64,000 bases of DNA from Patescibacteria group bacterium (GCA_041659765.1 JBAZXR010000001.1:787338-851337), one strand, 5' to 3'; shown: positions 24,563 to 60,013, counted from the stretch's first letter. Notes: generated from the letters alone by a model not told the origin. Numbers and translations: made by a program.

Positions 24563-26128
24563 CTAGTCACAGGTACAGGTCTTGAACTCCGGGTGCCGAG
24601 CACAGTAGCCCGGCCGGTCGTTCTCCATCTGCACTTTGTCTGCCAGGCACAGGCTTTGTGCCTGTGACCGCGCAATCAGCGGGAGCCCTCCAGACGACAG
24701 GCTGTAAGTGTTCCGTCCGGAATCCGCTTCCAGCATGTTGTCCGTGTACGCGTGCAGGTTGCCCACCAGCTTACGCTGTCCGGCCTGGCTGAAGAACAAG
24801 GCAAAGAAGAGCGCCACACCAGCCATCCCCACAATGGCCTTCGGGGAACCGCCGAGCAGAGCAGTGATCAGGTCCTGCACGAGTACTGGCAGAATGTAAC
24901 CATTGAAGTACTGAGCGACCGTCAGGATGGTCAGGAGAAAGAACCACGCCGCCACGAAGAGCCCCTTGTCCAGGACCACCTCACCGGTCATGGCCCAAAA
25001 AACGTTCACCGCAAGCCCAACGAGCGTCGCGCCCATTGAAACCTTCAGGTTGGCCGCCCGGGTCTCGCCCTGAACGGTCAGGTACTGCTTGTTCTGCCGT
25101 TCCTCGATCAGGTGGGCCGTGCTGGCTCCTGCCGAGGGTGAGGCTTCCTTAGCGTGACCATGAGCGTCTTTAGCGGCTGGCTTTGCTTTCGGCTCATCGT
25201 GAGCCGTGGGCAACACCACCTTCTTTCCGTCTTCGCCGACGTAGATGTCCTTCACCTGCACCGTCCACGGATCATCCACGAGGACGAAGAAGATGGAAGC
25301 CCAAACGGCGAAGAAGCTGACATCGCCCCAAAAGGCCAAGGGGCTGAAGCCCGGCCTAAGCCAGGTCGCCAGCACAATCACGCCAACCGTGAGGCTAGAC
25401 GCTTTGAGGAGCTGACCGAAGGCCTGGGTCAAGCTGAACTTCTTCTTCTTTCCTTCCGAGCTGGTTCGACCAGTGCGGAAGGCGAGGTAAGCCACGACGC
25501 CAGTCACGCAGAGAGGGGCGCCCACAACGACGAGCGTCGCAATAGCCGCCACCCACCACCATTTGCCGGTAGACGGAGCAACCTTGGCCGGCACACTGGC
25601 CGGAGCGCCAAAGATGGTGTGTTTGGCCCACTCCACCTTGGCCTTCATGCCGTTGGTCACCACGTTGTCATCAATCCAGTCCTTCATCTCGAGCGAAGCC
25701 TGCTCAGCCATCGGGACGTTCTTGAACCCTTCGTCGAGCGCTGCCTCCAGAAACGGAGCCAACTCATCGAGCACACCGTGCAGGAACATGGTGGACTCTT
25801 CCCGCTCGGCCTTGCTCGGCCGAGCAGTCGGATCAGGATCGATCACTCGGGTCAAACGGACCGCGTGATCGTGCGCCAGGTCGGCACGCGCCTCAGTCAT
25901 GTCCGGCAATTTGCCGTACGGCTGAGCGCCTTCCGTCAAGGCCAGAATGGCCCGGCGGAGCTGACGCCGCTCTTTGGGGCGTTCAATGATCTCTTCCTGC
26001 TCGTTGTTACGGAGCATGAAGATCTCAGTCCACGCCAGGAGGGCGCGCTTCTGGCCTTCCTTCAGAACCACCGGCTTGGGCAGTTCAGGAGTCTTGGCCG
26101 GATCAGGGGTAGCAGATGCAGTAGACAT
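24563..26128 (-). CDS. hypothetical membrane protein, G+C-rich (cytoplasmic N-domain + about 8 TM helices)
   Basis: 521 aa; no recognisable domain. Confidence 0.55.
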   Translation of the reverse strand: MSTASATPDPAKTPELPKPVVLKEGQKRALLAWTEIFMLRNNEQEEIIERPKERRQLRRAILALTEGAQPYGKLPDMTEARADLAHDHAVRLTRVIDPDPTARPSKAEREESTMFLHGVLDELAPFLEAALDEGFKNVPMAEQASLEMKDWIDDNVVTNGMKAKVEWAKHTIFGAPASVPAKVAPSTGKWWWVAAIATLVVVGAPLCVTGVVAYLAFRTGRTSSEGKKKKFSLTQAFGQLLKASSLTVGVIVLATWLRPGFSPLAFWGDVSFFAVWASIFFVLVDDPWTVQVKDIYVGEDGKKVVLPTAHDEPKAKPAAKDAHGHAKEASPSAGASTAHLIEERQNKQYLTVQGETRAANLKVSMGATLVGLAVNVFWAMTGEVVLDKGLFVAAWFFLLTILTVAQYFNGYILPVLVQDLITALLGGSPKAIVGMAGVALFFALFFSQAGQRKLVGNLHAYTDNMLEADSGRNTYSLSSGGLPLIARSQAQSLCLADKVQMENDRPGYCARHPEFKTCTCD

Positions 26129-26274
26129 TGATGTTTCCTCCAGGGGCAGGCTTGCCCCAATTCAGTTGTTTTTCGGTTGTAAAAGGACAAATGAGTTTAA
26201 CTGAAACGACCAAGAAAGTCAATGGTTTAAGGTATTAGATTTCATGTTTTATTGGTCTTTTTCACTAAAAACAT

Positions 26275-26308
26275 TGACAAAACCCCTTTTTTATGCTATT
26301 ATTGTTAG
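26275..26308 (+). promoter_or_regulatory. sigma70-like promoter (TTGACA - 17 nt - TATTAT) in AT-rich divergent spacer
   Basis: ttgacaaaaccccttttttatgctattattg upstream of 26379 gene. Confidence 0.35.
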
Positions 26309-26378
26309 TTGAGTAACGATCGGGGAAGGTCCCTGAAACGTGCTCAGACGCTTGAGAAAACCCAATGTGAGGTGACTA

Positions 26379-27152
26379 ATGTTGACCCTTATCCTGTCCT
26401 TGTTCGTTTCCAGCGCCAACGCTGGTGACTCCGTCTACGTCCCCCGCGCCACGCTCGGCAGTCGCCCGGCGGTGGTCAGCGTGTGCCCGGACGGCGTGAG
26501 TGTGGTCGGGCGCATCCGCGCCGGCACCATGCTCCCGTACGCGGAGCTGTGCGCTGATCACCAGGAGGCCATGGCGAGCATCGCCACGGACCGCGCCCTG
26601 GTGGACGGCCAGGTCGACGTTGATCGCATCGACGCGGTCACGCGCCGCCAGGAAGTCGAAAGTGACCGCACGATCGGCGTGATCGACGCCAACACCCGGC
26701 GCGAGGTGTCCCTCCAGGGCATCGAGCACGGCGTGGCGACCTACGCCCGCGGTGACATGGTGGTCACGGGTGACAAGCCCGCCGCCATTGCCGCGGAGTT
26801 TGACAACCTGCCGGCCGGCGGTGGCTACAGCTTCTACGATCGCCGGGTCGGACAGTCGTTTACGGCGTTCGACACGCTGAACGCACTGGACGGCAACGGC
26901 GGGTACTCCGGTGGCCTGGTCGGACAGACGACGCAGTCGACCTCGTCGACCAGCGCCACCACCGCGACGGTGAACTCGACCGAGCTCCAATCCGACCTGC
27001 AAAAGGCGGACGAACAGAGCGCCAGCCTGCGGACACAGGTGGGCGGTCTGCAGGGCCAGGTCTCGGTCCAGGAAGCCGAGCTCAAGGCGAAGCAAGCCGA
27101 GATCGACAGGCTGGCCCCGCTCGCCGATGAGTCCTGGTGGCCCGGCTACTAG
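26379..27152 (+). CDS. hypothetical secreted protein with C-terminal coiled coil, G+C-rich
   Basis: 257 aa; MLTLILSLFVSSANA signal peptide. Confidence 0.55.
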   Translation: MLTLILSLFVSSANAGDSVYVPRATLGSRPAVVSVCPDGVSVVGRIRAGTMLPYAELCADHQEAMASIATDRALVDGQVDVDRIDAVTRRQEVESDRTIGVIDANTRREVSLQGIEHGVATYARGDMVVTGDKPAAIAAEFDNLPAGGGYSFYDRRVGQSFTAFDTLNALDGNGGYSGGLVGQTTQSTSSTSATTATVNSTELQSDLQKADEQSASLRTQVGGLQGQVSVQEAELKAKQAEIDRLAPLADESWWPGY

Positions 27153-27270
27153 GAACACGTGACTGGTCTCCTCAAATACACGCAAGTGTGTTTGAGGAGA
27201 CCGGATCTACTGAGTGACGAACGGAATTTTCCGTTGGCCACTCACAAGTCCCTGTTCGGAGGTAATTCAC

Positions 27271-27918
27271 ATGCGTTCCTTTCTCATGGTCATGCAGTTC
27301 ATGATTGTCTTCTTCACGGGCATGGCCCGCGCGGAGGACAGCCGCGTCCTGCCACACGCCGCGGACATCGCGTCCCTGGGCTGCGTGAACGGAGACGTTC
27401 CCGTGCCCGTGGGCGTCATCCTCACCTGGCGTCCGCCCAACTGTACGGCCGCGGACGGCCTGGTAGAGATCACGAATGACACCCCCGGGTGCATCGTGCC
27501 GAACATCTCCGGGGTCTCCAAACCGAAGGTCGTGGAAGCCTTCGGAATGAATCTCGCGGTCATTGGCTTCTACAAGTCGGACGGCCGGTTCCTGCCCTGT
27601 ATCCCCCAGCGGAAGAAGGACCAGAACACCGGCAACACGACCATCGGTCACTACTGGATGTTTCTCCCGACGCCGATCGTCACGATCTCCGGGTCGGGGT
27701 ACACGGTGCCGCGAGACTGGCACATCACCGATGTCACAATCGACGCCACCACGGACGTTCCCGTGGTTGCGTTGAACGGCAGCATTGGCGGTCTGACGAA
27801 GACGGCCCCGCTCGCCTTCACCTGCTCCACCGTTGAGTTCAACTCGGCGAGTGACAGTGAACTGTGGAGCAACGGACTCCCGGTCTTCAACTTCCAGTAC
27901 ACGAACTGCCCGCACTAA
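27271..27918 (+). CDS. hypothetical secreted Cys-containing protein, G+C-rich
   Basis: Start at MRSFLMVMQFMIVFFTGMARA after ggagg RBS. Confidence 0.5.
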   Translation: MRSFLMVMQFMIVFFTGMARAEDSRVLPHAADIASLGCVNGDVPVPVGVILTWRPPNCTAADGLVEITNDTPGCIVPNISGVSKPKVVEAFGMNLAVIGFYKSDGRFLPCIPQRKKDQNTGNTTIGHYWMFLPTPIVTISGSGYTVPRDWHITDVTIDATTDVPVVALNGSIGGLTKTAPLAFTCSTVEFNSASDSELWSNGLPVFNFQYTNCPH

Positions 27919-27981: not shown

Positions 27982-28012
27982 ACAAACAAAAAACCGCCCG
28001 AAGGCGGTTTTT
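27982..28012. terminator. bidirectional rho-independent terminator
   Basis: aaaaaaccgcccgaaggcggttttttt. Confidence 0.65.
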
Positions 28013-28018
28013 TTAGTC

Positions 28019-28405
28019 TTAGACGTTGCCCGTAGCCTTACTGAGGTTATCGATCACGAAACTGCTGATGGCGTAAGCTGAGAGGAGAACCACTAGACCA
28101 ACCACTGCCGAGATCAAAATGTTCTTTGCGGAATCAACTTTCTTAGAGTCACCAGCGGCCGTCATCCAAGTGAAACCGGCGTAGATGGTCAGAACCAAGA
28201 ACACGATACCGAGGATGCCCAAGAAAGTTTGGATTAGCGATCCAACAGTCTGAGTTAAATCCTGCTTCTGTTGACCAGAGCTGGTACCGACGGCATCAAG
28301 GTTATCGTTTAAGTTAATTGCATGCACCGTAAGCACGGATGGTAACAATGTCATTGCGGCCAAACCAGCACCGAAGGCAAACTTTTTGAATTTGTTCATA
28401 GACAT
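28019..28405 (-). CDS. pilin-like small protein 1 (signal peptide + two-helix VirB2/TrbC-like core)
   Basis: Core YAGFTWMTAAGDSKKVDSAKNILISAVVGLVVLLSAYAISSFVI. Confidence 0.6.
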   Translation of the reverse strand: MSMNKFKKFAFGAGLAAMTLLPSVLTVHAINLNDNLDAVGTSSGQQKQDLTQTVGSLIQTFLGILGIVFLVLTIYAGFTWMTAAGDSKKVDSAKNILISAVVGLVVLLSAYAISSFVIDNLSKATGNV

Positions 28406-28469
28406 ATTAAATGTTGAATAAAGTATACATCGCCCATAACTCATGTGAAATAACTATACACACCCGTGC

Positions 28470-28856
28470 CTAACAATTGGGTGGAATACATCCCGGCGTG
28501 CTAGTAGGACTAAGGCTTCCCGAGTATGACGAGTCTGATGTGGCCGACTGCGACTGCTGTAGTGCGTTGATAATGAACGAAGAAATAGCGAAAGCCGAAA
28601 GAGTGATAACAAGACCAACGGTTGCACTGATTAGCATACCCTTAGCTCTATCCACTAACTTTGAATTCCCCGCAGAGGTCATCCAGATAAAACCGGCGTA
28701 GACCACAAGTATAAGAAAAACAACTCCCAAGATACCAAAGACCGCACTGATAATGACACCAATCAGCTGAGGCAAGGTTTGCGAAACCGTATATCCGGCG
28801 TTACCGCCGGCCTGGGAGAGCCCCGTGGTTGTCACAATCGCCAAAAGCCTGGTCAT
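28470..28856 (-). CDS. pilin-like small protein 2
   Basis: Core YAGFIWMTSAGNSKLVDRAKGMLISATVGLVITLSAFAISSFII. Confidence 0.6.
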   Translation of the reverse strand: MTRLLAIVTTTGLSQAGGNAGYTVSQTLPQLIGVIISAVFGILGVVFLILVVYAGFIWMTSAGNSKLVDRAKGMLISATVGLVITLSAFAISSFIINALQQSQSATSDSSYSGSLSPTSTPGCIPPNC

Positions 28857-28857
28857 A

Positions 28858-29250
28858 TTATCCTCCCTGTGGATTTCCTGAAATTCCGCCCGTAGAAAGT
28901 GCGGTGAAAAGTGCGCTAGTCACCGCATAAGCAGCTACAATGATAACCGCGCCAATAACTGCGCCGGTCATAATGTCTTTTGCTTTAGCTACTCGCTTAT
29001 CATTTCCGGCAGCCGTCATCCAAAGACCACCAGCGTAAACCATGAGACAGAGAAAAGTAAGTCCTAGAAGACCAAGAACCGGCTGAATAACGCGAGCCCC
29101 AATAAACTGGGCGATATTCATGTTCGAATCAATCTTCGCGGCTACTCCGGTCTGAGATAGGCCAGAATCCCCAACGCTAAATTGTGCGGATACGCCAAGA
29201 GGAAGCAGGAAGGACAACGCCATGAGCCCAGTTACTACCAGTTTTCGCAT
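28858..29250 (-). CDS. pilin-like small protein 3
   Basis: Signal peptide MRKLVVTGLMALSFLLPLGVSA; core YAGGLWMTAAGNDKRVAKAKDIMTGAVIGAVIIVAAYAVTSALF. Confidence 0.6.
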   Translation of the reverse strand: MRKLVVTGLMALSFLLPLGVSAQFSVGDSGLSQTGVAAKIDSNMNIAQFIGARVIQPVLGLLGLTFLCLMVYAGGLWMTAAGNDKRVAKAKDIMTGAVIGAVIIVAAYAVTSALFTALSTGGISGNPQGG

Positions 29251-29297
29251 ATCGTGCCCGCACCTTCAGAGAAGATGCGGACTTCGATAGGTGACAA

Positions 29298-29708
29298 CTA
29301 ACCTTGAGTAGCGGTGAGGAAAGAAGAAATAACGAACGTGGTGATAGCGTAGGCTGACAGGATGATCGCCAGACCAATGATACCGCTGATGATGAGCTTC
29401 TTAGCTTCACCAACTTTCTCATCGTTACCACCGGAAACCATCCACTTGAAGCCACCGTAGAGCACAATGACTACAGCTACTACTCCGAGGAAACCAAGGG
29501 CTACCTTAATGAGGTTGCCGATGGTCTGCTTCAGGTCACCCTGGCCAAGACCAGTGGAATCACCGAAGTCAGAGCTGATGATATCCTCAGCGCCCAGTGG
29601 CTGAGCATGGGCTACTGGCGCAAATGACGGAACTAAGCGCATGAACGGAAGTGCGAGCGCGAGCCCGAGCACGGCGCTCATCCCAAATCGTACCAAGGAT
29701 TTCACCAT
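29298..29708 (-). CDS. pilin-like small protein 4
   Basis: Start set at MVKSLVRFGMSAVLGLALALPF; core YGGFKWMVSGGNDEKVGEAKKLIISGIIGLAIILSAYAITTFVI. Confidence 0.55.
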   Translation of the reverse strand: MVKSLVRFGMSAVLGLALALPFMRLVPSFAPVAHAQPLGAEDIISSDFGDSTGLGQGDLKQTIGNLIKVALGFLGVVAVVIVLYGGFKWMVSGGNDEKVGEAKKLIISGIIGLAIILSAYAITTFVISSFLTATQG

Positions 29709-29764
29709 AGGAATGGTAAGTAATAAATTAAAAATGAGAAATCTCCTGAACATTATACACCAGA

Positions 29765-30349
29765 CTAAGTACCGAGGACTGATCCTGTGGTCAACCCAGT
29801 AATGACCGCCTGGGTCAGCGTATAGGCTCCGGCAATAACCGCCAAACCTACAACCGTCCAAACTAATACCGCCTTACCTTTAGCCACCATTTTGTCATTA
29901 CCCATGGAAGTAATCCACAGCACTCCGCCGTAAATGAACATGAGCAAGGTGACGGAACCAATGATTGATAGAATGGCCTTGATCAAGTTACCGATAATGA
30001 CCTGCGGGTTTGCGGTGCCGAGAGGATTAATAAGCGAGACCGACGCGCCTGTGGCAGAACCAGAGGTTAGAGCATTTGAAGTCGTTGATGGAAGCGTTGA
30101 TTCATTGGCGGCGAAACAGGCTCTTCGCTGATCAAAACAGCCCTGAGTGTCACGGTCAAAGTTTGCCACACAATCTGGACAAGCGTTGCCAGTACACTGT
30201 GCATCAATACAGGTCTGCTGAATAAGTTCCGCAGGCGCAATACACGTATCGTATTGTGCGGCACAGTCTACAGCGGCAAAAACATGTGCCTTAGGAGCCA
30301 GGAACAGACCCAGGGCCGCAGTAAAAAGAAGAAACGCTTTGATTCGCAT
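29765..30349 (-). CDS. pilin-like small protein 5 (Cys-rich mature N-terminus)
   Basis: Core YGGVLWITSMGNDKMVAKGKAVLVWTVVGLAVIAGAYTLTQAVI; 10 Cys in N-terminal region. Confidence 0.6.
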   Translation of the reverse strand: MRIKAFLLFTAALGLFLAPKAHVFAAVDCAAQYDTCIAPAELIQQTCIDAQCTGNACPDCVANFDRDTQGCFDQRRACFAANESTLPSTTSNALTSGSATGASVSLINPLGTANPQVIIGNLIKAILSIIGSVTLLMFIYGGVLWITSMGNDKMVAKGKAVLVWTVVGLAVIAGAYTLTQAVITGLTTGSVLGT

Positions 30350-30350
30350 A

Positions 30351-30887
30351 TTACTGGGTATTGATAATATTTTCTGCTCCTACTCCGCTTGGGGTACAAC
30401 CTGTTGTTTGCCCAGGTCTACAGGTAGTTGAAGAATTAACAGTGTCTTCAATGGTGGCTCCAGGGGCAACGCCGGAAATAGCGGCGATCAAGAAGTTAAC
30501 AAAAGCGTAAGAGCCGAAGATTATAGCGAGGCCAATCACGGCGCGGACGATAATTTCTTTGCCTTGTTCAATCTTCTTTGGATTACCCATAGAGGTCACC
30601 CAAGTGAAACCGCCGTAAAAGAACATCAGAAGCGCGACTGAACCACTGATAGCTAAAATGCCAATAGAGATGTTAACGAAGATCTGCAACATGTCAGAGA
30701 GCTGGCACTGTCCTGAGTCTCGACAGGGACAAGGGGCTGAAGCGGATGAGCAAATGTTCGCAAAAATAAGACCCTGGCTCATGATGCTTGAGTATCCCCC
30801 GCTCACTGTCTGCGCATGCGCTACTGCCGGCAACCAAAAAGAAACAACTAGACCAAGTGCTAAAAAAGCGTTGCGAAGAAAACGCAT
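30351..30887 (-). CDS. pilin-like small protein 6 (Cys-rich)
   Basis: Core YGGFTWVTSMGNPKKIEQGKEIIVRAVIGLAIIFGSYAFVNFLI. Confidence 0.6.
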   Translation of the reverse strand: MRFLRNAFLALGLVVSFWLPAVAHAQTVSGGYSSIMSQGLIFANICSSASAPCPCRDSGQCQLSDMLQIFVNISIGILAISGSVALLMFFYGGFTWVTSMGNPKKIEQGKEIIVRAVIGLAIIFGSYAFVNFLIAAISGVAPGATIEDTVNSSTTCRPGQTTGCTPSGVGAENIINTQ

Positions 30888-30906
30888 ACTCACAAATAAT
30901 ACCACG

Positions 30907-32292
30907 CTAATAGGTCTGTCCCACTACTCGAGCTGCTTGAGAAACGGCTTTCTTAGGATCATCAGTGCCAACTAGAATAGTTGTCGATAGATCGCTCAGG
31001 GCTTTAAAGGCCGCGTCTGAGTCTGAACCATGATACCAACTTTGGGAAGTTAGCAGCTGGCTAGCAAAGACACCCAGGGTTTCGTCTTCTAGTTCCGCGC
31101 CAATCAAACTGCGGACAGCTGTGGGGTGTCCTGACTTAGCCAAGAAAGAAGTAACGTTTTTGGGATTAGAGGCGAAGTCCAAGAAATTCCAGGCGTAATC
31201 ACCAAATTTTGAGGTTTTAGATACGCCCTGCAACCAGTAGTTGGGGTAGTTAACAATTCGTCCGCCGGCGATTTGCGGGAGAGGAGCAATACCGTAATTC
31301 AATTTTGGAGCAGCCGCTGTCAGGATTGGCACGTCATAACTGTACCCGAGCATGAACGCTGTTTGACCGCGGGCAAAGGCGCTAACCGAATTTGGAAAGC
31401 CATCATTCCAGGTGTAAACCTCTTTTACTGGATTAGCAAAGTCCGTGTAGAAAGTCACGGCATCAAGCGCTGGAAACACGCCCTGTGGCGTGCCCTTTGG
31501 TACGCCATCAAAGGTTGGGTTGCCGTTTTCATCAGTCATCTGAGCACCATTTTGCATCATGAGAACGGAAATAATATCGCCGGAACGGTCAACGTTCTTC
31601 ACCGTTCCGAGAGCTGCTCCTGACTGAGCTACTCCCCCGGTAGCATCATACTTAGTCAGTTTTTTCACGGCCTCGTTAAACTGATCCCAAGCTGCGGGCG
31701 GCTCAGCAATACCGGCTGAGTTCAGTAGATCCTTGTTATAAAACAAGGCCAGCGTGTCCATAGAGAACGGGAAGCCGTAAATCCTGGGCGTTGCTGCCAT
31801 CTTAGGATCAGCGGTGTAGTTCAAAATAGCATCTGAAGAAACAACATCAACAAACTGTGACTTAAAAGTTTTCTGTGACATGGTGGCTTCCTGCTTGGCT
31901 ACCAGCGCTGTTTCTTTTCTGAGTGTTCCTTGGGTCACCAAATAGCTAATATTGAGCTGTGGCGGCATGGGCGAAAGCAAACTCTGGAATTCGGACATCT
32001 TAGTATTATGAACTGAGAAAATATCCGGCCCGGTACCATCGGCCAGCGCTCGGATCAGTTCTTTTTCATATTCTTCTGGGCGAAACTTTCTATACTCGAT
32101 GGTCACGTTAGGATGAGCCGCTCTATAGGCTGAAAAAAGCTCGCGGTAGGCTGTTTCATCATCAAACACGCTCCAAAATTTAAGCGTTACTTTTTGTTGT
32201 ACTGGAGCAGATGAGCTGCCACCGGAACAACCGGCACCCACCATAACCAACGTAGAAAACAGGAAGAAAATTGAGAGTAAGCGCTTAATCAT
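30907..32292 (-). CDS. extracellular solute-binding protein (ABC transporter, family 1, sugar-type), lipoprotein
   Basis: Start at MIKRLLSIFFLFSTLVMVGAGC; SBP_bac_1-like; no permease/ATPase adjacent. Confidence 0.65.
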   Translation of the reverse strand: MIKRLLSIFFLFSTLVMVGAGCSGGSSSAPVQQKVTLKFWSVFDDETAYRELFSAYRAAHPNVTIEYRKFRPEEYEKELIRALADGTGPDIFSVHNTKMSEFQSLLSPMPPQLNISYLVTQGTLRKETALVAKQEATMSQKTFKSQFVDVVSSDAILNYTADPKMAATPRIYGFPFSMDTLALFYNKDLLNSAGIAEPPAAWDQFNEAVKKLTKYDATGGVAQSGAALGTVKNVDRSGDIISVLMMQNGAQMTDENGNPTFDGVPKGTPQGVFPALDAVTFYTDFANPVKEVYTWNDGFPNSVSAFARGQTAFMLGYSYDVPILTAAAPKLNYGIAPLPQIAGGRIVNYPNYWLQGVSKTSKFGDYAWNFLDFASNPKNVTSFLAKSGHPTAVRSLIGAELEDETLGVFASQLLTSQSWYHGSDSDAAFKALSDLSTTILVGTDDPKKAVSQAARVVGQTY

Positions 32293-32845
32293 AGATATAA
32301 AGAGTGGTTCCGCGTTTGAGTCCGGCGAGTTGTTGTTCAACGGTTCTCGTAGGTTTTCTGTGCTCGAGGGGGAAATCGATCGCGACAATACGAGTTCCAG
32401 GCTTCAATTCTTGGTCTAGCTTAGCTTCAACCCGTTCCATGAGCGTCGGAAAGAGGTAGGTTACGACGTGAGTCGCCTCAACGAGGTTTTCTTTGAAGAA
32501 ATCGCGCCTAAGTATTTCGATCCGTGTCCCTCTGGTCCGGTATTTCGCTATGAGGTACGGCAAAAGAGCTTTCTCAAGGCCAACTGCGCGGATATTCAGA
32601 TTTCGCCGAATGACCGCGAGCAAAACCCGGCCGTCTCCACAGCCCATATCATACACCACAGCGCCATCAGCGAGTTCGAGTGCGTCGACAATGCCCTGAA
32701 CAGCCTTTGATGGTACTGGCACGAACGGCGCACCGCTGCCAACAATACTAACGAACCAAAGAATGACCAACGGCAATACAAAAAAAGTGAGAAAAATGGC
32801 AAAGACTACAAGGAGAATCGTAGCGATTGTAGAAGTGATCAACAT
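32285..32845 (-). CDS. membrane-anchored class I SAM-dependent methyltransferase
   Basis: N-terminal TM helix; MGCGDGRVLL motif I. Confidence 0.55.
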   Translation of the reverse strand: MLITSTIATILLVVFAIFLTFFVLPLVILWFVSIVGSGAPFVPVPSKAVQGIVDALELADGAVVYDMGCGDGRVLLAVIRRNLNIRAVGLEKALLPYLIAKYRTRGTRIEILRRDFFKENLVEATHVVTYLFPTLMERVEAKLDQELKPGTRIVAIDFPLEHRKPTRTVEQQLAGLKRGTTLYIYD

Positions 32846-32931: not shown

Positions 32932-33816
32932 CTACTCGCGAGACTTCAAATACTCTGCTAAACCTTCTTTCACCTCCGGATGCAAGAGGCCGAGTTCAAT
33001 CTGGGCGATAATGAATTGGAGTTTATTACCGCAATCGTAGCGTTTGCCGGACAAAACATGACCGTACAGCTGCTTGCCGGCATCAACATAAGTAGTAAAA
33101 GCGTCGGCCAGACGAATCTCTCCGTCCTTACCCGGTTTCTGTTTCTCAAGTAGGCGCAAAATTTCTGGCGTAACAATATATCTGCCAACTGAGGCCAGGT
33201 TAGACGGTGCGTCCTCCGGGGCTGGCTTTTCGACGAATCTTTTTACTTGCCAAGTATTCCCAGCAATTTCTACGCCATCGATGATTCCATAGCTAGAAAC
33301 CTTCTCGTGCGGTACTTCCTGCACGCCAACCACTGGTGCACCGAACTTTTCGTAGGTTTCGATCAGCTCGCTAATAGCCGGACGCTCGCCGGAAAAAATG
33401 TCATCACCGGTAAAAATCGCCACCGTTTCATCGTCACCCACAAATGGAGCGGCGGCTAGAATGGCATGGCCATCGCCAAGCGGTTTCTGCTGACGCACGA
33501 ACGCAAACTTAGCAAGCTTACCGATGGCTTGAATGGCTTTCAGCTCGGCCATCTTCTTCTTTTGCTCCAGGCGATACTCAAGCTCAAAATTGCGATCAAA
33601 ATGATCTTCGAGCGCCCTCTTGCCCATGGCGGTGACGAAAATAACTTCCTCAATGCCTGCAGCCACTGCTTCTTCGACGATGTACTGAATCACTGGTTTG
33701 TCGACAACCGGCAGCATTTCCTTTGGCTGTGCCTTGGTGGCTGGCAAAAAACGCGTACCCATTCCAGCTACTGGAATAATTGCTTTTCTAATCTTTTGCG
33801 ATTTTTTGGGGGGCAT
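32932..33816 (-). CDS. galU: UTP--glucose-1-phosphate uridylyltransferase
   Basis: AIIPVAGMGTRFLPATKAQPKEMLPVVDKP N-terminal signature; full-length collinearity. Confidence 0.85.
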   Translation of the reverse strand: MPPKKSQKIRKAIIPVAGMGTRFLPATKAQPKEMLPVVDKPVIQYIVEEAVAAGIEEVIFVTAMGKRALEDHFDRNFELEYRLEQKKKMAELKAIQAIGKLAKFAFVRQQKPLGDGHAILAAAPFVGDDETVAIFTGDDIFSGERPAISELIETYEKFGAPVVGVQEVPHEKVSSYGIIDGVEIAGNTWQVKRFVEKPAPEDAPSNLASVGRYIVTPEILRLLEKQKPGKDGEIRLADAFTTYVDAGKQLYGHVLSGKRYDCGNKLQFIIAQIELGLLHPEVKEGLAEYLKSRE

Positions 33817-57120: not shown

Positions 57121-58254
57121 TTACTGGCGGATCGGCATCACGATATACAAGTATTTCTCATCAGCTTGTTCATGTGGGACGAGGAGACAGGGGTTTGTGG
57201 CATCGATAATTTTTACGATTACCTTCTCGCTCGTCATGGCGTTGATACCGTCGAGCAAATAACGGAAGTTCAGCGTCACCGAGTTATCGATTCCCGTCAC
57301 GTCGCCTTCGACCGCAACGGTATGGTCGCCGCGGCCAGCATCTGTAGCCGAGAGAACGATCTCATTCACGCCCGCCTTTACTTCAAGCTTCACGTCGAAC
57401 AATCCCGCTTTCGAGAAAAGACTGGCGCGCTTTACGGCCTGGCCAAAAACAGTCTTGTTTACAATGATTTCCGTAGCGCTTGTCTTGGGGATAATCTGTC
57501 GATAATCGGGATAAACTCCGTCGATCGTCCGTGAAGAAAGTTCGACTGACCCGTAACGGAAAGCAACCTGGTTGTCAGTGATCTCGATCTCGAGTGTTTC
57601 TGGGATTTCGACCGCGTCGCGAAGGACACCGAAGATTCTGCGTAGCTCGGCCAATGTTCTGCTGGGGACAACTACCTTTCTTTCCCCCATGATATCCCCA
57701 GTTAAGGCAATCTGGCGCTCGCCGAGGCGGTAAGAGTCAGTCGCGGCAATTGTCAGCAGCTTTTTGTTGCCATCGAACTCCAAATAACATCCAGTAAGTA
57801 CCTGGCGAGCCTCGCTTGTCGACACCGAAAACAGGGTCTGTGCGAGTGCAGCATCAAAAGGAGCAACAGGAACAGTGAATTTTACCCCGCCGGTTACCTG
57901 AGGTACCAACGGAAACTCGCTTGGAGCTAAACCGTTGATCTTGGTCTTGGATGAACCACAAACAACAAGCAAAGAGGTGTCGAGCAGGTCGAGATCGACC
58001 CGTTCGTCCGGAAGTAATGAAACGTAATCTGCGATAAGTTTAGCGGGAACGGTGTATTCACCTGCTTGGTCGACCTTACTACGAACGGTACAGATCACCG
58101 TCATGTCGAGGTTTGTGGCCGTCAGCTTGAGTCCAGCCACTTCTGCCCTTAAGAGCACGTTATTCAAAATGGGAAGGTTCGCGCTCTTCCCGCTAATGTG
58201 ACTCACGATGGTCAGTCCCTGGTGGATGTTTTCTTTTGTACAGGAGAGTTTCAC
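57121..58254 (-). CDS. dnaN: DNA polymerase III beta sliding clamp
   Basis: 377 aa, three-domain collinearity with DnaN, immediately downstream of dnaA. Confidence 0.9.
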   Translation of the reverse strand: MKLSCTKENIHQGLTIVSHISGKSANLPILNNVLLRAEVAGLKLTATNLDMTVICTVRSKVDQAGEYTVPAKLIADYVSLLPDERVDLDLLDTSLLVVCGSSKTKINGLAPSEFPLVPQVTGGVKFTVPVAPFDAALAQTLFSVSTSEARQVLTGCYLEFDGNKKLLTIAATDSYRLGERQIALTGDIMGERKVVVPSRTLAELRRIFGVLRDAVEIPETLEIEITDNQVAFRYGSVELSSRTIDGVYPDYRQIIPKTSATEIIVNKTVFGQAVKRASLFSKAGLFDVKLEVKAGVNEIVLSATDAGRGDHTVAVEGDVTGIDNSVTLNFRYLLDGINAMTSEKVIVKIIDATNPCLLVPHEQADEKYLYIVMPIRQ

Positions 58255-58261
58255 AGGTGCT

Positions 58262-58501
58262 TCTGATATTTATATATAAGATAACTAGTAGTAACAGTGA
58301 GTCTGTGGATGAAGTGGATAACGCTTGTTGTCCCCGTCCCATTTGAGTTCCTGACGATTTCACCTGTGTGAAAAGTCTGTGAACAGCTGTGAGGACGTTT
58401 GGGATAACTGGCAGTAGTCTACACCATTTAACTCTGTCCCCGTTTTATCCGCAATCCTATCCCCAGACTTATCCATCCCCATATCAACAGACTTATCCAC
58501 A
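58262..58501. promoter_or_regulatory. oriC candidate part 1: AT-rich DUE-like stretch + DnaA-box cluster in dnaA-dnaN spacer
   Basis: ttctgatatttatatataagataactagtag (58262-58292); boxes ctgtggatg 58303, agtggataa 58313, ttatccgca 58443, ttatccatc 58468, perfect ttatccaca 58493. Confidence 0.55.
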
Positions 58502-58525
58502 TTATGTGCACCTCGGGTGGTCGAA

Positions 58526-58601
58526 ATCATCCTGAGGAGCTCTTAGCGACGAAGGATCTGATTGGTTGACCATTCAGATTCTTCGCTACGCTCAGAATGA
58601 C
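58526..58601. repeat. ~75-nt palindromic element, copy C (inside origin spacer, abutting dnaA stop)
   Basis: atcatcctgaggagctcttagcgacgaaggatctgattggttgaccattcagattcttcgctacgctcagaatgac. Confidence 0.65.
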
Positions 58602-58609
58602 TCAACGAA

Positions 58610-60013
58610 TTACGCTCCCGTGTACATCTTCTGCTTGATGAGTTCCAGGTCTTTCTGAAGTTTCTCGTCAGAATCAATGAGATTCTTAATCTTTGAGTGC
58701 GCGTGCATAGCGGTAGTGTGATCTCGGCCGCCAAGCTCAGCGCCAATAGTAGGATAGGAGCTCTTCATTTCTTCGCGGAGCAGGAACATGATGATTTGGC
58801 GTGGGAAAGCCAGGCGTTTCTCACGGCTCTTACCGAGAACGTCCTCGATCTGAATATCGAAATACGCTGCAACGACGATAATAACTTGGCGAGGAGTCAC
58901 GGTTTTCTTCACATTTTCGGATTCGAAGCTTGAGATAATCGGTTTGATGGTATCGAGCGTCGCTTCCATGTTCCTAAACTGGTGAACGGCGATGATTTTA
59001 TTCAAAGCGCCCTCAAGTTCGCGAACATTCGAGAAAACGGTCGAAGCCACATACTGAAGAACGTCCTTTGTTAGTGGGAACGCCTTTTCAATACACTTCT
59101 TTTCGAGAATCGCGATCCGTGTTTCGAGATCGGGAGTTCCGACGTCGACCAACATTCCCCATTCGAGGCGGGACTGTAGACGCTTTTCAAGGCCAGCGAT
59201 CGATTTTGGCGGTCTATCTGACGAGATGACGATCTGTTTGTTGTCCTGATGGAGCGTATTAAAGGTATGGAAGAATTCTTCCTGCGTTCCCTCTTTGCCG
59301 GTAATGAACTGAATGTCGTCAATCAAGAGAAGGTCGACATTGCGATAGCGATCTTTGAACTCCTTACCCTTACCAGTGCGAACCGAGTGAATAAAATCAT
59401 TAGTAAAGTGCTCGCAGGTGACGTACATGATGCGTGCGCCCTGCCACTTACGACGAATCTCGTTGGCGATAGCATGCAACAAGTGAGTTTTACCGAGTCC
59501 AACACCGCCGTAAATGAAAAGCGGGTTATATGTGCCTCCTGGTTGCGAGGCGACGGCCTGGGACGCAGCGTGCGCTAGTTCGTTTTGCTTGCCGACTACG
59601 AACGTATGGAAAGAATAGGAAGGATTCACCGTAATGTTGCCCGTTGGTGGCAAACTTGGCGCTCCGCCATCTGTAGTTGTGAATCCGTAGTCCTCGGCTC
59701 CAGCAATCTTTGGTGTCACAATCTGAATTGGCTGATATGCCGCGGGTTTTGCCTCAATTCGACATTTTAAGCTCCTAATCGGGTTCGGTGTGAGGGTCTG
59801 TAAGGCTTCGAGAATCTCTTTGTTAAACTTTTTCTCTAACCAAGTTTGGGAAAGGCTATTGGGGACGCCAATAACGTACGCGCCCGGCTGGTAGTCACAA
59901 ATAAAGGTGTTCTTGAACCACGTACTAAAATGCGCTCGGCTTATCTTAAGCTCTACATGGGCAAGGACTGCTTGCCAGAGCTCATGAGTATCCATGGGAG
60001 TACCAATCTCCAT
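58610..60013 (-). CDS. dnaA: chromosomal replication initiator DnaA
   Basis: GGVGLGKTHLLHA Walker A, LLIDDIQF, C-terminal DNA-binding domain ...DHTTAMHAHSKI; start could be 59995. Confidence 0.9.
   Translation of the reverse strand: MEIGTPMDTHELWQAVLAHVELKISRAHFSTWFKNTFICDYQPGAYVIGVPNSLSQTWLEKKFNKEILEALQTLTPNPIRSLKCRIEAKPAAYQPIQIVTPKIAGAEDYGFTTTDGGAPSLPPTGNITVNPSYSFHTFVVGKQNELAHAASQAVASQPGGTYNPLFIYGGVGLGKTHLLHAIANEIRRKWQGARIMYVTCEHFTNDFIHSVRTGKGKEFKDRYRNVDLLLIDDIQFITGKEGTQEEFFHTFNTLHQDNKQIVISSDRPPKSIAGLEKRLQSRLEWGMLVDVGTPDLETRIAILEKKCIEKAFPLTKDVLQYVASTVFSNVRELEGALNKIIAVHQFRNMEATLDTIKPIISSFESENVKKTVTPRQVIIVVAAYFDIQIEDVLGKSREKRLAFPRQIIMFLLREEMKSSYPTIGAELGGRDHTTAMHAHSKIKNLIDSDEKLQKDLELIKQKMYTGA

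What the first reader, a model, noticed from the sequence alone, without database searches (positions are those of the whole stretch)
28019..30905. Operon of six paralogous VirB2/TrbC-pilin-like small proteins with no recognisable secretion machinery
Six consecutive minus-strand genes (about 128-194 aa) are spaced 1-60 nt apart. All share the same build:
- a cleavable-looking signal peptide;
- a variable mature N-terminal segment, with two members carrying 8-10 cysteines;
- a conserved core Y[AG]G..WM[TV][SA].G[ND].K.V..[AG]K followed by a second hydrophobic helix [AG].[IV]GL.[IV]....[AS]YA...F.
Two hydrophobic helices joined by a short basic loop after a signal peptide is the topology of conjugative or T4SS pilins (VirB2/TrbC). 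Nowhere in the 64 kb is there a VirB4/VirD4 ATPase, VirB6 channel, relaxase or type IV pilus (PilB/PilC) gene. The array lies between a G+C-rich island of unknown secreted and membrane proteins and a lone solute-binding lipoprotein. This could be an uncharacterised multi-subunit surface filament or adhesion system (for example for an episymbiotic lifestyle), or a paralog set for surface variation. This is the best candidate in the window for an undescribed system.
Basis: partly seen in the sequence, partly recalled or inferred. Interest (0 to 1): 0.8.

Follow-up and report, generated by a model that had tools for sequence, protein, structure and literature searches.

The report
Patescibacterial VirB2-like pilin gene array
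Six neighbouring genes encode diverged copies of a small type IV secretion pilin-like protein; such arrays are already described in the ultra-small Patescibacteria, so this is a typical new example and not an undescribed system.

Summary
Six tandem minus-strand genes (28019-30905) encode paralogous proteins with a signal peptide and a two-helix hairpin. No T4SS ATPase, channel, relaxase or type IV pilus gene was found in the 64 kb.

The pilin reading is right, but the novelty claim is not. All six score above the curated cut-off of Pfam PF18895 (T4SS_pilin). The window comes from an NCBI Patescibacteria MAG (897-kb contig), where PGAP already names one of them "pilin". Tandem arrays of 2-11 diverged VirB2-like pilins in Patescibacteria are published (McLean 2018/2020; Wang 2023, where the array is essential; Quinonero-Coronel 2025: 441 arrays, often far from virB4).

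What I add:
- Among 80 related loci, six is the commonest array size.
- Each array position has its own ortholog across 15 genomes, so these are old, distinct subunits and not recent duplicates.
- In 39 of 46 assessable arrays a carbohydrate-type solute-binding protein gene sits just upstream or inside the array.
- A strong terminator ends the operon.
- In relatives the same pilin module heads giant adhesin-like proteins.

The T4SS machinery is inferred to lie elsewhere in the genome: five of six named relatives have VirB4. I could not show this for the source genome.

The parts
30351..30887 (-). Pilin A (array position 1). 178 aa from the ATG; the ORF can extend to a GTG at 30905. Signal peptide, 6 Cys, and a C-terminal Cys/Thr/Pro-rich tail after helix 2.
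   Evidence: PF18895 29.6 bits (cut-off 26.6) and weak TrbC PF04956, E 0.056. Best hit is position 1 in all 15 relatives tested.
29765..30349 (-). Pilin B (position 2). 194 aa, with an ~90-residue N-terminal segment carrying 8 Cys ahead of the hairpin.
   Evidence: PF18895 33.6 bits. NCBI names it 'pilin' (MFA5947236.1). Best hit is position 2 in 15 of 15 relatives.
29298..29753 (-). Pilin C (position 3). 151 aa from the ATG at 29753; the mechanical ORF start (TTG at 29861) overlaps gene B. This is the most conserved member.
   Evidence: PF18895 40.7 bits. 87-90% identical to its counterpart in the two closest relatives and 47-74% in the 13 more distant ones.
28858..29250 (-). Pilin D (position 4), 130 aa.
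   Evidence: PF18895 28.7 bits. The exact protein is on record as MFA5947234.1. Best hit keeps its place in 13 of 15 relatives (position 4, or 5 in L002, which carries one extra gene).
28470..28856 (-). Pilin E (position 5), 128 aa, with a short weak leader and a Ser/Pro/Cys C-terminal tail.
   Evidence: PF18895 29.1 bits. 51% local identity to F, its closest paralog.
28019..28399 (-). Pilin F (position 6, last gene), 126 aa.
   Evidence: PF18895 41.7 bits. NF045849 43.9 bits (cut-off 40). The AF2 model shows a helical hairpin, residues 48-80 and 85-122, with pLDDT 84-93.
27988..28013 (-). Intrinsic terminator closing the operon: an 11-bp stem (AAAAAACCGCC TTCG GGCGGTTTTTT) followed by a T-rich tail, 5 nt after the stop codon of pilin F.
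30907..32292 (-). Orphan carbohydrate-type solute-binding protein. 461 aa from the ATG, with a lipoprotein-like leader ...VGAGC. Its stop lies 19 nt upstream of pilin A. It is a conserved upstream partner of the array.
   Evidence: SBP_bac_1, E 1.7e-24; weak GanS/MalE/UgpB-type hits. Its homolog lies directly upstream, within two genes, or inside the array in 39 of 46 assessable arrays. No ABC importer permease was found in the window.
32932..33816 (-). GalU (UTP-glucose-1-phosphate uridylyltransferase). It usually precedes the SBP gene in relatives. Whether it belongs functionally to the cassette is not shown.
   Evidence: TIGR01099 341.5 bits, above its cut-off of 326.8. Its homolog cluster is present in 37 of 86 loci, typically as GalU-SBP-pilins.
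24563..27918 (.). G+C-rich (60-68%) three-gene segment just past the terminator:
- a 521-aa polytopic membrane protein (24563-26128, minus strand)
- two secreted proteins (26379-27152 and 27214-27918, plus strand)

Its position next to the array is conserved in close relatives, but the sequences are hypervariable. Any link to the pilins is unproven.
   Evidence: No Pfam or NCBIfam hit. Same position and same G+C excess in L002 and L010. The membrane protein has only 8 relatives among 1.8 billion representative proteins.

Best explanation
The six genes are the pilin set of the Patescibacteria-type type IV secretion system, a relative of the conjugation machinery of single-membrane bacteria.

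How it most likely works:
1. Each product is exported by Sec and its leader is cut by signal peptidase I (inferred from AXA sites).
2. It sits in the membrane as a two-helix hairpin with a short Lys-rich cytoplasmic loop and both ends outside (inferred from hydrophobicity and the AF2 model).
3. It is then drawn out of the membrane and assembled into a surface filament or conduit by a VirB4/VirB3/VirB6-type machine. That machine is encoded elsewhere on the ~0.9-Mb chromosome (inferred; not shown for this genome).

The six are old, position-specific paralogs and not recent copies. I therefore read them as non-redundant subunits: a conserved core subunit (C), and decorated ones carrying extra Cys-rich or tail segments (A, B, E) exposed on the outside.

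They are co-transcribed with an orphan sugar-type solute-binding lipoprotein. The evidence for this is tight spacing, one strand, and a single strong terminator after the last gene.

The likely role is contact with, or uptake from, a host cell in an epibiotic lifestyle. This rests on analogy with Saccharibacteria, where the pilin array is essential.
For: Family:
- All six exceed the PF18895 gathering score. F exceeds the NF045849 cut-off.
- 60 homologs all carry PF18895, and some are named 'pilin' by NCBI.

Organism:
- The exact proteins belong to an NCBI 'Patescibacteria group bacterium' MAG (WC813_04395-044xx) on an 897,219-bp contig.
- The nearest named relatives are Candidatus Uhrbacteria, Magasanikbacteria and Falkowbacteria. 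These are GTDB class ABY1 (Table S1 of PMC12102498).

Fold: a confident helical hairpin and matching hydrophobic segments.

Known kind:
- Literature as listed above.
- Within-array identity is 23% over full length and 34-51% locally. The published mean is 25% and maximum 54%.

Array statistics: among the fetched loci and the window, tandem arrays of 4-11 genes are the rule and six is the commonest size (28 of 88).

Ancient, distinct subunits:
- Positions 1 and 2 best-hit the same position in all 15 relatives. Positions 3 and 4 do so in nearly all, once the extra gene in L002 is allowed for.
- There is no DNA repeat of 18 nt or more among the genes.

Operon: the terminator and SBP adjacency in 39 of 46 arrays.

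Machinery elsewhere:
- VirB4 is present in 2417 of 3035 Patescibacteria assemblies, and pilins often lie away from it.
- Five of six named relatives whose array loci I fetched have VirB4 in Table S1, yet no T4SS ATPase lies in the fetched flanks.

Outside-facing C-terminus: relatives fuse the same pilin module to Ig-like, TIG and VWA adhesin domains.
Against: - No pilus made of these proteins has been seen in any Patescibacterium. The reviews speak only of a 'potential' to make pili.
- I could not show a VirB4, VirB6 or VirD4 gene in the source genome. A homolog search with a relative's VirD4-like ATPase listed only the top 120 of 3202 hits, and none came from the 897-kb contig.
- The sequence link to canonical VirB2/TrbC is weak. 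PF04956 gives at best E 0.056. Profile-profile comparison with Agrobacterium/Acetobacter VirB2 gives 15.5% probability.
- Fold searches cannot tell a helical hairpin from thousands of others.
- Non-redundancy of the six is inferred from conservation, not tested.
Confidence: 0.6

Rival explanations
1. The proteins are T4SS parts but do not form a long pilus. Instead they build a short membrane- or wall-spanning stalk or channel, as a single-membrane envelope might need, or they act as membrane-embedded assembly factors.
For: - Gram-positive-type T4SSs generally lack pili.
- The best NCBIfam match is a Mycoplasma ICE 'pilin-like conjugal transfer protein'. That family comes from wall-less bacteria; from my own knowledge, no conjugative pilus is described for them.
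- No Patescibacteria T4SS pilus has been imaged.
Against: - The hairpin with a basic loop and outward-facing ends is the pilin build.
- Fusions to giant adhesin-like proteins suggest surface display.
- Six conserved distinct subunits are many for a simple channel.
Confidence: 0.2
2. The six genes are interchangeable major-pilin variants kept for surface variation or host-range switching. This is the Bartonella/Anaplasma-like reading suggested in the literature and by the first reader.
For: - Within-array identity is low, and the mature N-terminal segments vary.
- The idea is proposed in PMC12102498.
- Array size varies from 4 to 11 among relatives.
Against: - Each position has its own ortholog across 15 genomes, mostly more similar across genomes than paralogs are within one genome.
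- No DNA repeats or conversion tracts were found.
- All six lie in one operon with one terminator, so there is no sign of one-at-a-time expression.
- E and F, the last two genes, are the only pair that looks like a younger duplication.
Confidence: 0.12
3. The SBP-pilin cassette works without a T4SS. The small two-helix proteins would form a membrane or surface assembly that partners the orphan sugar-binding lipoprotein, as a capture or uptake device replacing the missing ABC permease.
For: - The SBP gene is tightly linked to the array in 39 of 46 cases, with a median gap of about 10 nt.
- No importer permease lies nearby.
- The arrays in this clade are never next to a T4SS ATPase.
- One of six named relatives is listed without VirB4.
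Against: - Five of six named relatives do have VirB4.
- In Saccharibacteria the same family sits inside the T4SS cluster.
- L058 has a single pilin next to a VirD4/TraG-like ATPase.
- Gene linkage may reflect only co-expression of surface proteins.
Confidence: 0.07
4. They are unrelated small membrane proteins (holin-like, or fragments of a transporter) that match a pilin profile through hydrophobic composition alone.
For: - Several weak hits to unrelated membrane-protein families appear at E 0.001-1.
- JGI labels some homologs as transporter subunits.
Against: - All six pass the curated PF18895 threshold, while every other family is far below its own cut-off.
- Non-hydrophobic residues are invariant (Y, W, K and several G).
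- The gene set is conserved in hundreds of genomes.
- There is no phage context.
Confidence: 0.01

Closest known systems
VirB2-like pilin arrays of the Patescibacteria T4SS (Southlakia epibionticum ML1, SEML1_0006-0019 cluster; Nanosynbacter lyticus TM7x 'array of small signal-peptide proteins'; the 441 arrays of Quinonero-Coronel et al. 2025)
   Same: - Same Pfam family (PF18895).
- Same build: signal peptide plus hairpin.
- Tandem array of six sequence-divergent members with about 25% mean identity.
- Chromosomal, not on a mobile element; no relaxase was found in the 64 kb examined.
- Same phylum.
   Different: - Here the array is detached from any T4SS gene. It is instead fused into an operon with an orphan solute-binding protein, downstream of GalU. 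In S. epibionticum the array lies inside the T4SS cluster.
- The host is an ABY1/Uhrbacteria-like lineage, not Saccharimonadia or Microgenomatia, where arrays were reported as most abundant.
Canonical VirB2/TrbC pilins (Pfam PF04956; Agrobacterium T-pilin, RP4 TrbC)
   Same: - Size and long leader.
- Two hydrophobic helices joined by a short basic loop.
- A collinear weak profile match that includes the W-M motif at the end of helix 1.
   Different: - The Pfam threshold is not reached (best 14.1 bits against 27.9).
- There is no adjacent virB3/virB4.
- The host has one membrane.
- Six paralogs instead of one major pilin.
- No evidence for cyclisation or a VirB5 tip protein.
Mbov_0395/MMCAP2_0565 family pilin-like conjugal transfer proteins of Mycoplasma ICEs (NCBIfam NF045849)
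   Same: - Best curated NCBIfam match: F scores 43.9 bits (cut-off 40) and the others 13-34 bits.
- Host envelope has a single membrane.
- The T4SS is of the MPF-FATA lineage.
   Different: - Those are single genes inside mobile conjugative elements.
- Here six genes lie in a housekeeping chromosomal region about 28 kb from dnaA, with no match in 72,556 plasmids.
Tandem VirB2 paralogs of Bartonella and Anaplasma T4SSs
   Same: Several diverged pilin paralogs in tandem, linked to a host-associated lifestyle (cited in PMC12102498).
   Different: - Those are read as antigenic variants in Gram-negative pathogens.
- Here position-specific orthology across genomes points to fixed, distinct roles.

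Membership tests
Pfam PF18895 T4SS_pilin | Whole-protein score at or above the curated gathering score (26.6 bits) | tested here: met
   The six proteins score 41.7, 29.1, 28.7, 40.7, 33.6 and 29.6 bits.
Pfam PF18895 T4SS_pilin | Leader peptide followed by two hydrophobic helices joined by a short charged loop | tested here: met
   Hydrophobic segments in all six. AF2 hairpin 48-80 / 85-122 at pLDDT 84-93. Leader cleavage sites were read from the sequence only.
Patescibacteria 'VirB2 array' (PMC12102498) | Two or more pilin genes in tandem, or separated by one non-pilin gene | tested here: met
   Six contiguous genes with gaps of 1-70 nt.
Patescibacteria 'VirB2 array' (PMC12102498) | Host genome is a Patescibacterium | tested here: met
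   The exact proteins are in an NCBI 'Patescibacteria group bacterium' MAG. The closest named loci are Uhrbacteria, Magasanikbacteria and Falkowbacteria, which are class ABY1.
Patescibacteria 'VirB2 array' (PMC12102498) | High divergence within the array (published mean 25%, maximum 54% identity) | tested here: met
   Mean 23% over the longer protein; 34-51% over local alignments.
Patescibacteria T4SS (as a functional system) | VirB4 ATPase, with TrsD, VirB3 and VirB6, encoded in the same genome | not testable with these tools
   Only 64 kb of the 897-kb contig is available. None is in the window. A homolog search could not reach the source genome. Indirect support: five of six named relatives are VirB4-positive.
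TrbC/VirB2 (Pfam PF04956) | Score at or above the gathering score (27.9 bits) | tested here: not met
   Only protein A hits, at 14.1 bits and E 0.056.
TrbC/VirB2 (Pfam PF04956) | Profile-level homology to bona fide VirB2 | tested here: inconclusive
   hhalign of the 37-sequence pilin alignment against four annotated VirB2/TrbC proteins gave probability 15.5%, E 0.0017 and 57 collinear columns.
TrbC/VirB2 (Pfam PF04956) | Structural match to solved conjugative pilins | tested here: inconclusive
NCBIfam NF045849 (Mbov_0395 pilin-like conjugal transfer protein) | Score at or above the cut-off of 40 bits | tested here: inconclusive
   Met by F only (43.9 bits). The other five score 13.1-34.5 bits.
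NCBIfam NF045849 (Mbov_0395 pilin-like conjugal transfer protein) | Located within an integrative conjugative element | tested here: not met
   The context is housekeeping and syntenic across genomes. No plasmid match was found.
Type IV pilins (T4P, PilA-like) | Class III leader (G|F/M-x-x-x-E) cut by prepilin peptidase, with one N-terminal hydrophobic helix | tested here: not met
   The sequences show Sec-type leaders with AXA sites and two hydrophobic helices. No T4P family appeared in the Pfam output.

The most novel reading that the evidence does not exclude
In this ABY1-like clade the array has been uncoupled from the T4SS gene cluster and fixed in an operon with an orphan sugar-binding lipoprotein. 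The most novel reading still open has two forms. Either the six ordered subunits build a heteromeric surface filament that displays or cooperates with the binding protein to capture host-derived carbohydrate, or the cassette works without any VirB4 machine at all. The related pilin-headed giant adhesins would be another output of the same assembly route.
Probability: 0.1. Interest if true: 0.7.

Novelty: new member of a known kind. Interest (0 to 1): 0.3.

Why it matters
As filed, this is a routine new example of a published feature of Patescibacteria, so it does not open a new system.

Its value lies in the details. No function is yet known for the Patescibacteria T4SS, although it is essential in the one species tested. 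Three observations give concrete handles for experiments on how these ultra-small epibionts touch or feed on their hosts:
- The six pilins are ancient, position-specific paralogs.
- In a whole clade they travel with an orphan sugar-binding protein and not with the secretion ATPase.
- The same pilin module carries giant adhesin-like proteins.

I found no paper combining Patescibacteria, pilin, solute-binding protein and type IV secretion. That search covers open-access text only.

Tried and rejected
1. A profile search of solved-structure sequences with the pilin alignment returned only artefactual hits to designed 'Pizza' repeat proteins, through a 19-residue stretch.
3. I tested the 521-aa membrane protein downstream as a diverged VirB6.
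   - No Pfam or NCBIfam hit.
   - Three word-based homologs and eight relatives in 1.8 billion representatives.
   - The AF2 model had pLDDT 38, which is unusable, so no fold search was run.
   - No claim is made about this protein.
4. I tried to show a T4SS ATPase in the source genome.
   - I found a VirD4/TraG-like 844-aa ATPase next to a single pilin in L058 and searched its family for a member on the 897,219-bp contig.
   - Only the best 120 of 3202 hits were listed, and none came from that contig.
   - I also looked 10 kb around dnaA in the closest long relative; there was no T4SS gene.
5. tblastn of pilin F against 72,556 plasmids found no match, so this is not a plasmid-borne family at BLAST level.
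6. A DNA repeat search within the array found none, which argues against recent duplication or gene conversion.
7. The two small secreted proteins downstream show no significant similarity to their positional counterparts in L002.
8. The exact-protein look-up returned only a 4-kb Logan contig and not the long contig.
Full report
**1. The observation**

The six minus-strand ORFs exist as described. With the most plausible ATG starts they are:
- A 30351-30887
- B 29765-30349
- C 29298-29753
- D 28858-29250
- E 28470-28856
- F 28019-28399

F's start matches the independent gene calls in NCBI and Logan. The gaps between genes are 1, 11, 47, 1 and 70 nt.

The proteins align over a shared core with invariant Y, G, W, G, K and G. 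Each has an N-terminal hydrophobic leader ending in an AXA-type site, and two long hydrophobic segments joined by a short Lys-rich loop. B and A carry 8 and 6 cysteines.

The negative claim also holds. Pfam scans of 46 ORFs, including every ORF of 300 aa or more, show a housekeeping chromosomal region near the replication origin. It contains dnaA, dnaN, PBP1, RuvB, trigger factor, SpoIID, flippase and Wzy. It has no T4SS ATPase, channel or relaxase gene and no type IV pilus gene.

**2. What the proteins are**

All six score above the curated threshold of Pfam PF18895, T4SS_pilin (28.7-41.7 bits against 26.6). F also passes NCBIfam NF045849, the pilin-like conjugal transfer protein of Mycoplasma ICEs.

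The canonical TrbC/VirB2 family PF04956 is reached only weakly, by A at E 0.056. I fetched four annotated VirB2/TrbC genes from Agrobacterium, Ensifer and Acetobacter plasmids. A profile-profile comparison gave a collinear but weak match: 15.5% probability over 57 columns.

An AlphaFold2 model of F built on 37 sequences shows a confident helical hairpin. Fold searches cannot tell this hairpin from thousands of others.

So membership in PF18895 is met. Membership in PF04956 is not met by score. The deeper VirB2 relationship remains plausible but is not shown here.

**3. Where the window comes from**

The exact proteins belong to an NCBI MAG named 'Patescibacteria group bacterium' (locus tags WC813_04395 onward) on an 897,219-bp contig. 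PGAP already calls protein B 'pilin'. The closest named loci in a scan of species-representative genomes are Candidatus Uhrbacteria, Magasanikbacteria and Falkowbacteria. These are GTDB class ABY1.

**4. Comparison with the literature**

This kind of array is published.
- Wang et al. [quoted passage not shown]
- Quinonero-Coronel et al. 2025 (PMC12102498) searched with PF18895 and PF04956.
  - They found 441 arrays of 2-11 pilin genes in 383 assemblies, with a mean identity of 25%.
  - VirB4 was present in 2417 of 3035 genomes.
  - The pilin gene was near virB4 in only 1135 of 1948 assemblies.

The window's array has six genes at 23% mean identity, which fits this description. Being far from virB4 is common.

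**5. What I add**

*Array size.* With a local HMM, tandem arrays are the rule among 80 related loci. Six is the commonest size (28 of 88 sources, the window included) and the range reaches 11.

*Distinct, ancient subunits.* Window positions 1 and 2 find their best match at the same position in all 15 relatives tested. Positions 3 and 4 do so in nearly all, allowing for the extra gene in L002. Position 3 is the most conserved, at up to 90% identity. Only the last two genes blur into each other. No DNA repeat of 18 nt or more links the genes. These are therefore ancient, distinct subunits. They are neither recent duplicates nor a conversion-driven variation cassette.

*A conserved binding-protein partner.* The 'lone' solute-binding protein is a conserved partner. 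Its homolog lies on the same strand directly upstream (30 arrays), within two genes (4) or inside the array (5), which is 39 of 46 assessable arrays. The median gap is about 10 nt, and GalU usually comes before it. This sample is biased toward relatives of the window's pilin F.

*Operon end.* A strong intrinsic terminator lies 5 nt after the stop of F. The transcription unit most likely runs from the SBP gene, or further upstream, through F.

*No nearby T4SS ATPase in this clade.* None of the array loci has a T4SS ATPase within the fetched flanks. Yet five of six named relatives are VirB4-positive in Table S1 of the 2025 paper. This supports machinery encoded elsewhere. I could not verify it for the source genome.

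**6. Mechanism**

*Shown:*
- family membership
- hairpin build
- operon structure
- conservation pattern

*Inferred:*
- Sec export and signal peptidase I cleavage
- membrane insertion with the basic loop inside and both ends outside
- extraction and polymerisation by a distant VirB4-type machine into a surface filament or conduit made of non-redundant subunits
- a role in host contact or uptake

The outward-facing C-terminus is supported by relatives. In these, a complete pilin module heads proteins of ~590-770 aa and giant proteins of 2250-3480 aa that carry Ig-like, TIG, DUF4215 and VWA domains.

*Main rivals:*
- a short channel or stalk instead of a pilus
- interchangeable variants for surface variation
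- an SBP-linked device independent of the T4SS

**7. Verdict**

The pilin interpretation is right and the claim of an undescribed system is wrong. This is a new member of a known kind. It comes with some new comparative detail and with an unresolved, G+C-rich, hypervariable neighbour segment.

Noticed in passing
L045:471-11623; also L021, L022, L030, L035, L040, L044, L046, L049, L061, L064, L065, L074: About 17 of the 80 related loci show a different arrangement. A complete PF18895 pilin module (residues ~1-135) forms the N-terminus of a ~590-770 aa protein, and also of the next gene, a giant protein of 2250-3480 aa. The giant proteins carry TIG/IPT, Big_5, DUF4215 and VWA domains. One contig (CAYVLY010000001.1) has both such a pair (L030) and a six-gene array (L047).
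   Followed up: partly
window 24563-27918: A three-gene segment lies just past the pilin terminator: a 521-aa polytopic membrane protein and two secreted proteins. Its G+C is 60-68%, against about 50% around it. Position and G+C excess are the same in relatives L002 and L010, but the proteins are almost unalignable. The membrane protein has only 8 relatives among 1.8 billion representatives. Function and the reason for the composition are unknown.
   Followed up: partly
window 32285-32845 (-): A 186-aa methyltransferase with an N-terminal membrane anchor lies between GalU and the SBP gene. It resembles archaeal protein-lysine N-methyltransferase NF041081 (E 4e-21, below cut-off). A positional counterpart of similar size lies between GalU and the SBP gene in L010 and L015, though homology was not tested. 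The pilins have an invariant Lys in the loop; any link is speculation.
   Followed up: no
L058:10001-12986: A single pilin gene is followed directly by an 844-aa VirD4/TraG-like ATPase (TrwB_AAD_bind, T4SS-DNA_transf, TraG-D_C, DUF87). Its family is unusually conserved: the 120 best-scoring hits listed are 62-100% identical (62-72% apart from four close relatives) and include proteins NCBI names as Falkowbacteria and Parcubacteria. 3202 hits had E <= 1e-10.
   Followed up: partly
loci L014-L086 (record titles): Many species-representative genome records that carry these Patescibacteria-type pilin arrays are titled 'uncultured Gammaproteobacteria bacterium' (TPA assemblies). Single ones are titled Nanoarchaeia, Acutalibacteraceae or Kapaibacterium. 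The record names look unreliable, or the contigs are mis-binned.
   Followed up: no
window 57121-60013: dnaN and dnaA lie about 28 kb from the pilin array, so the array is in the origin-proximal part of the chromosome. This fits the published remark that Patescibacteria T4SS genes tend to lie near dnaA. No virB4 lies within 10 kb of dnaA in the closest long relative (L006).
   Followed up: partly
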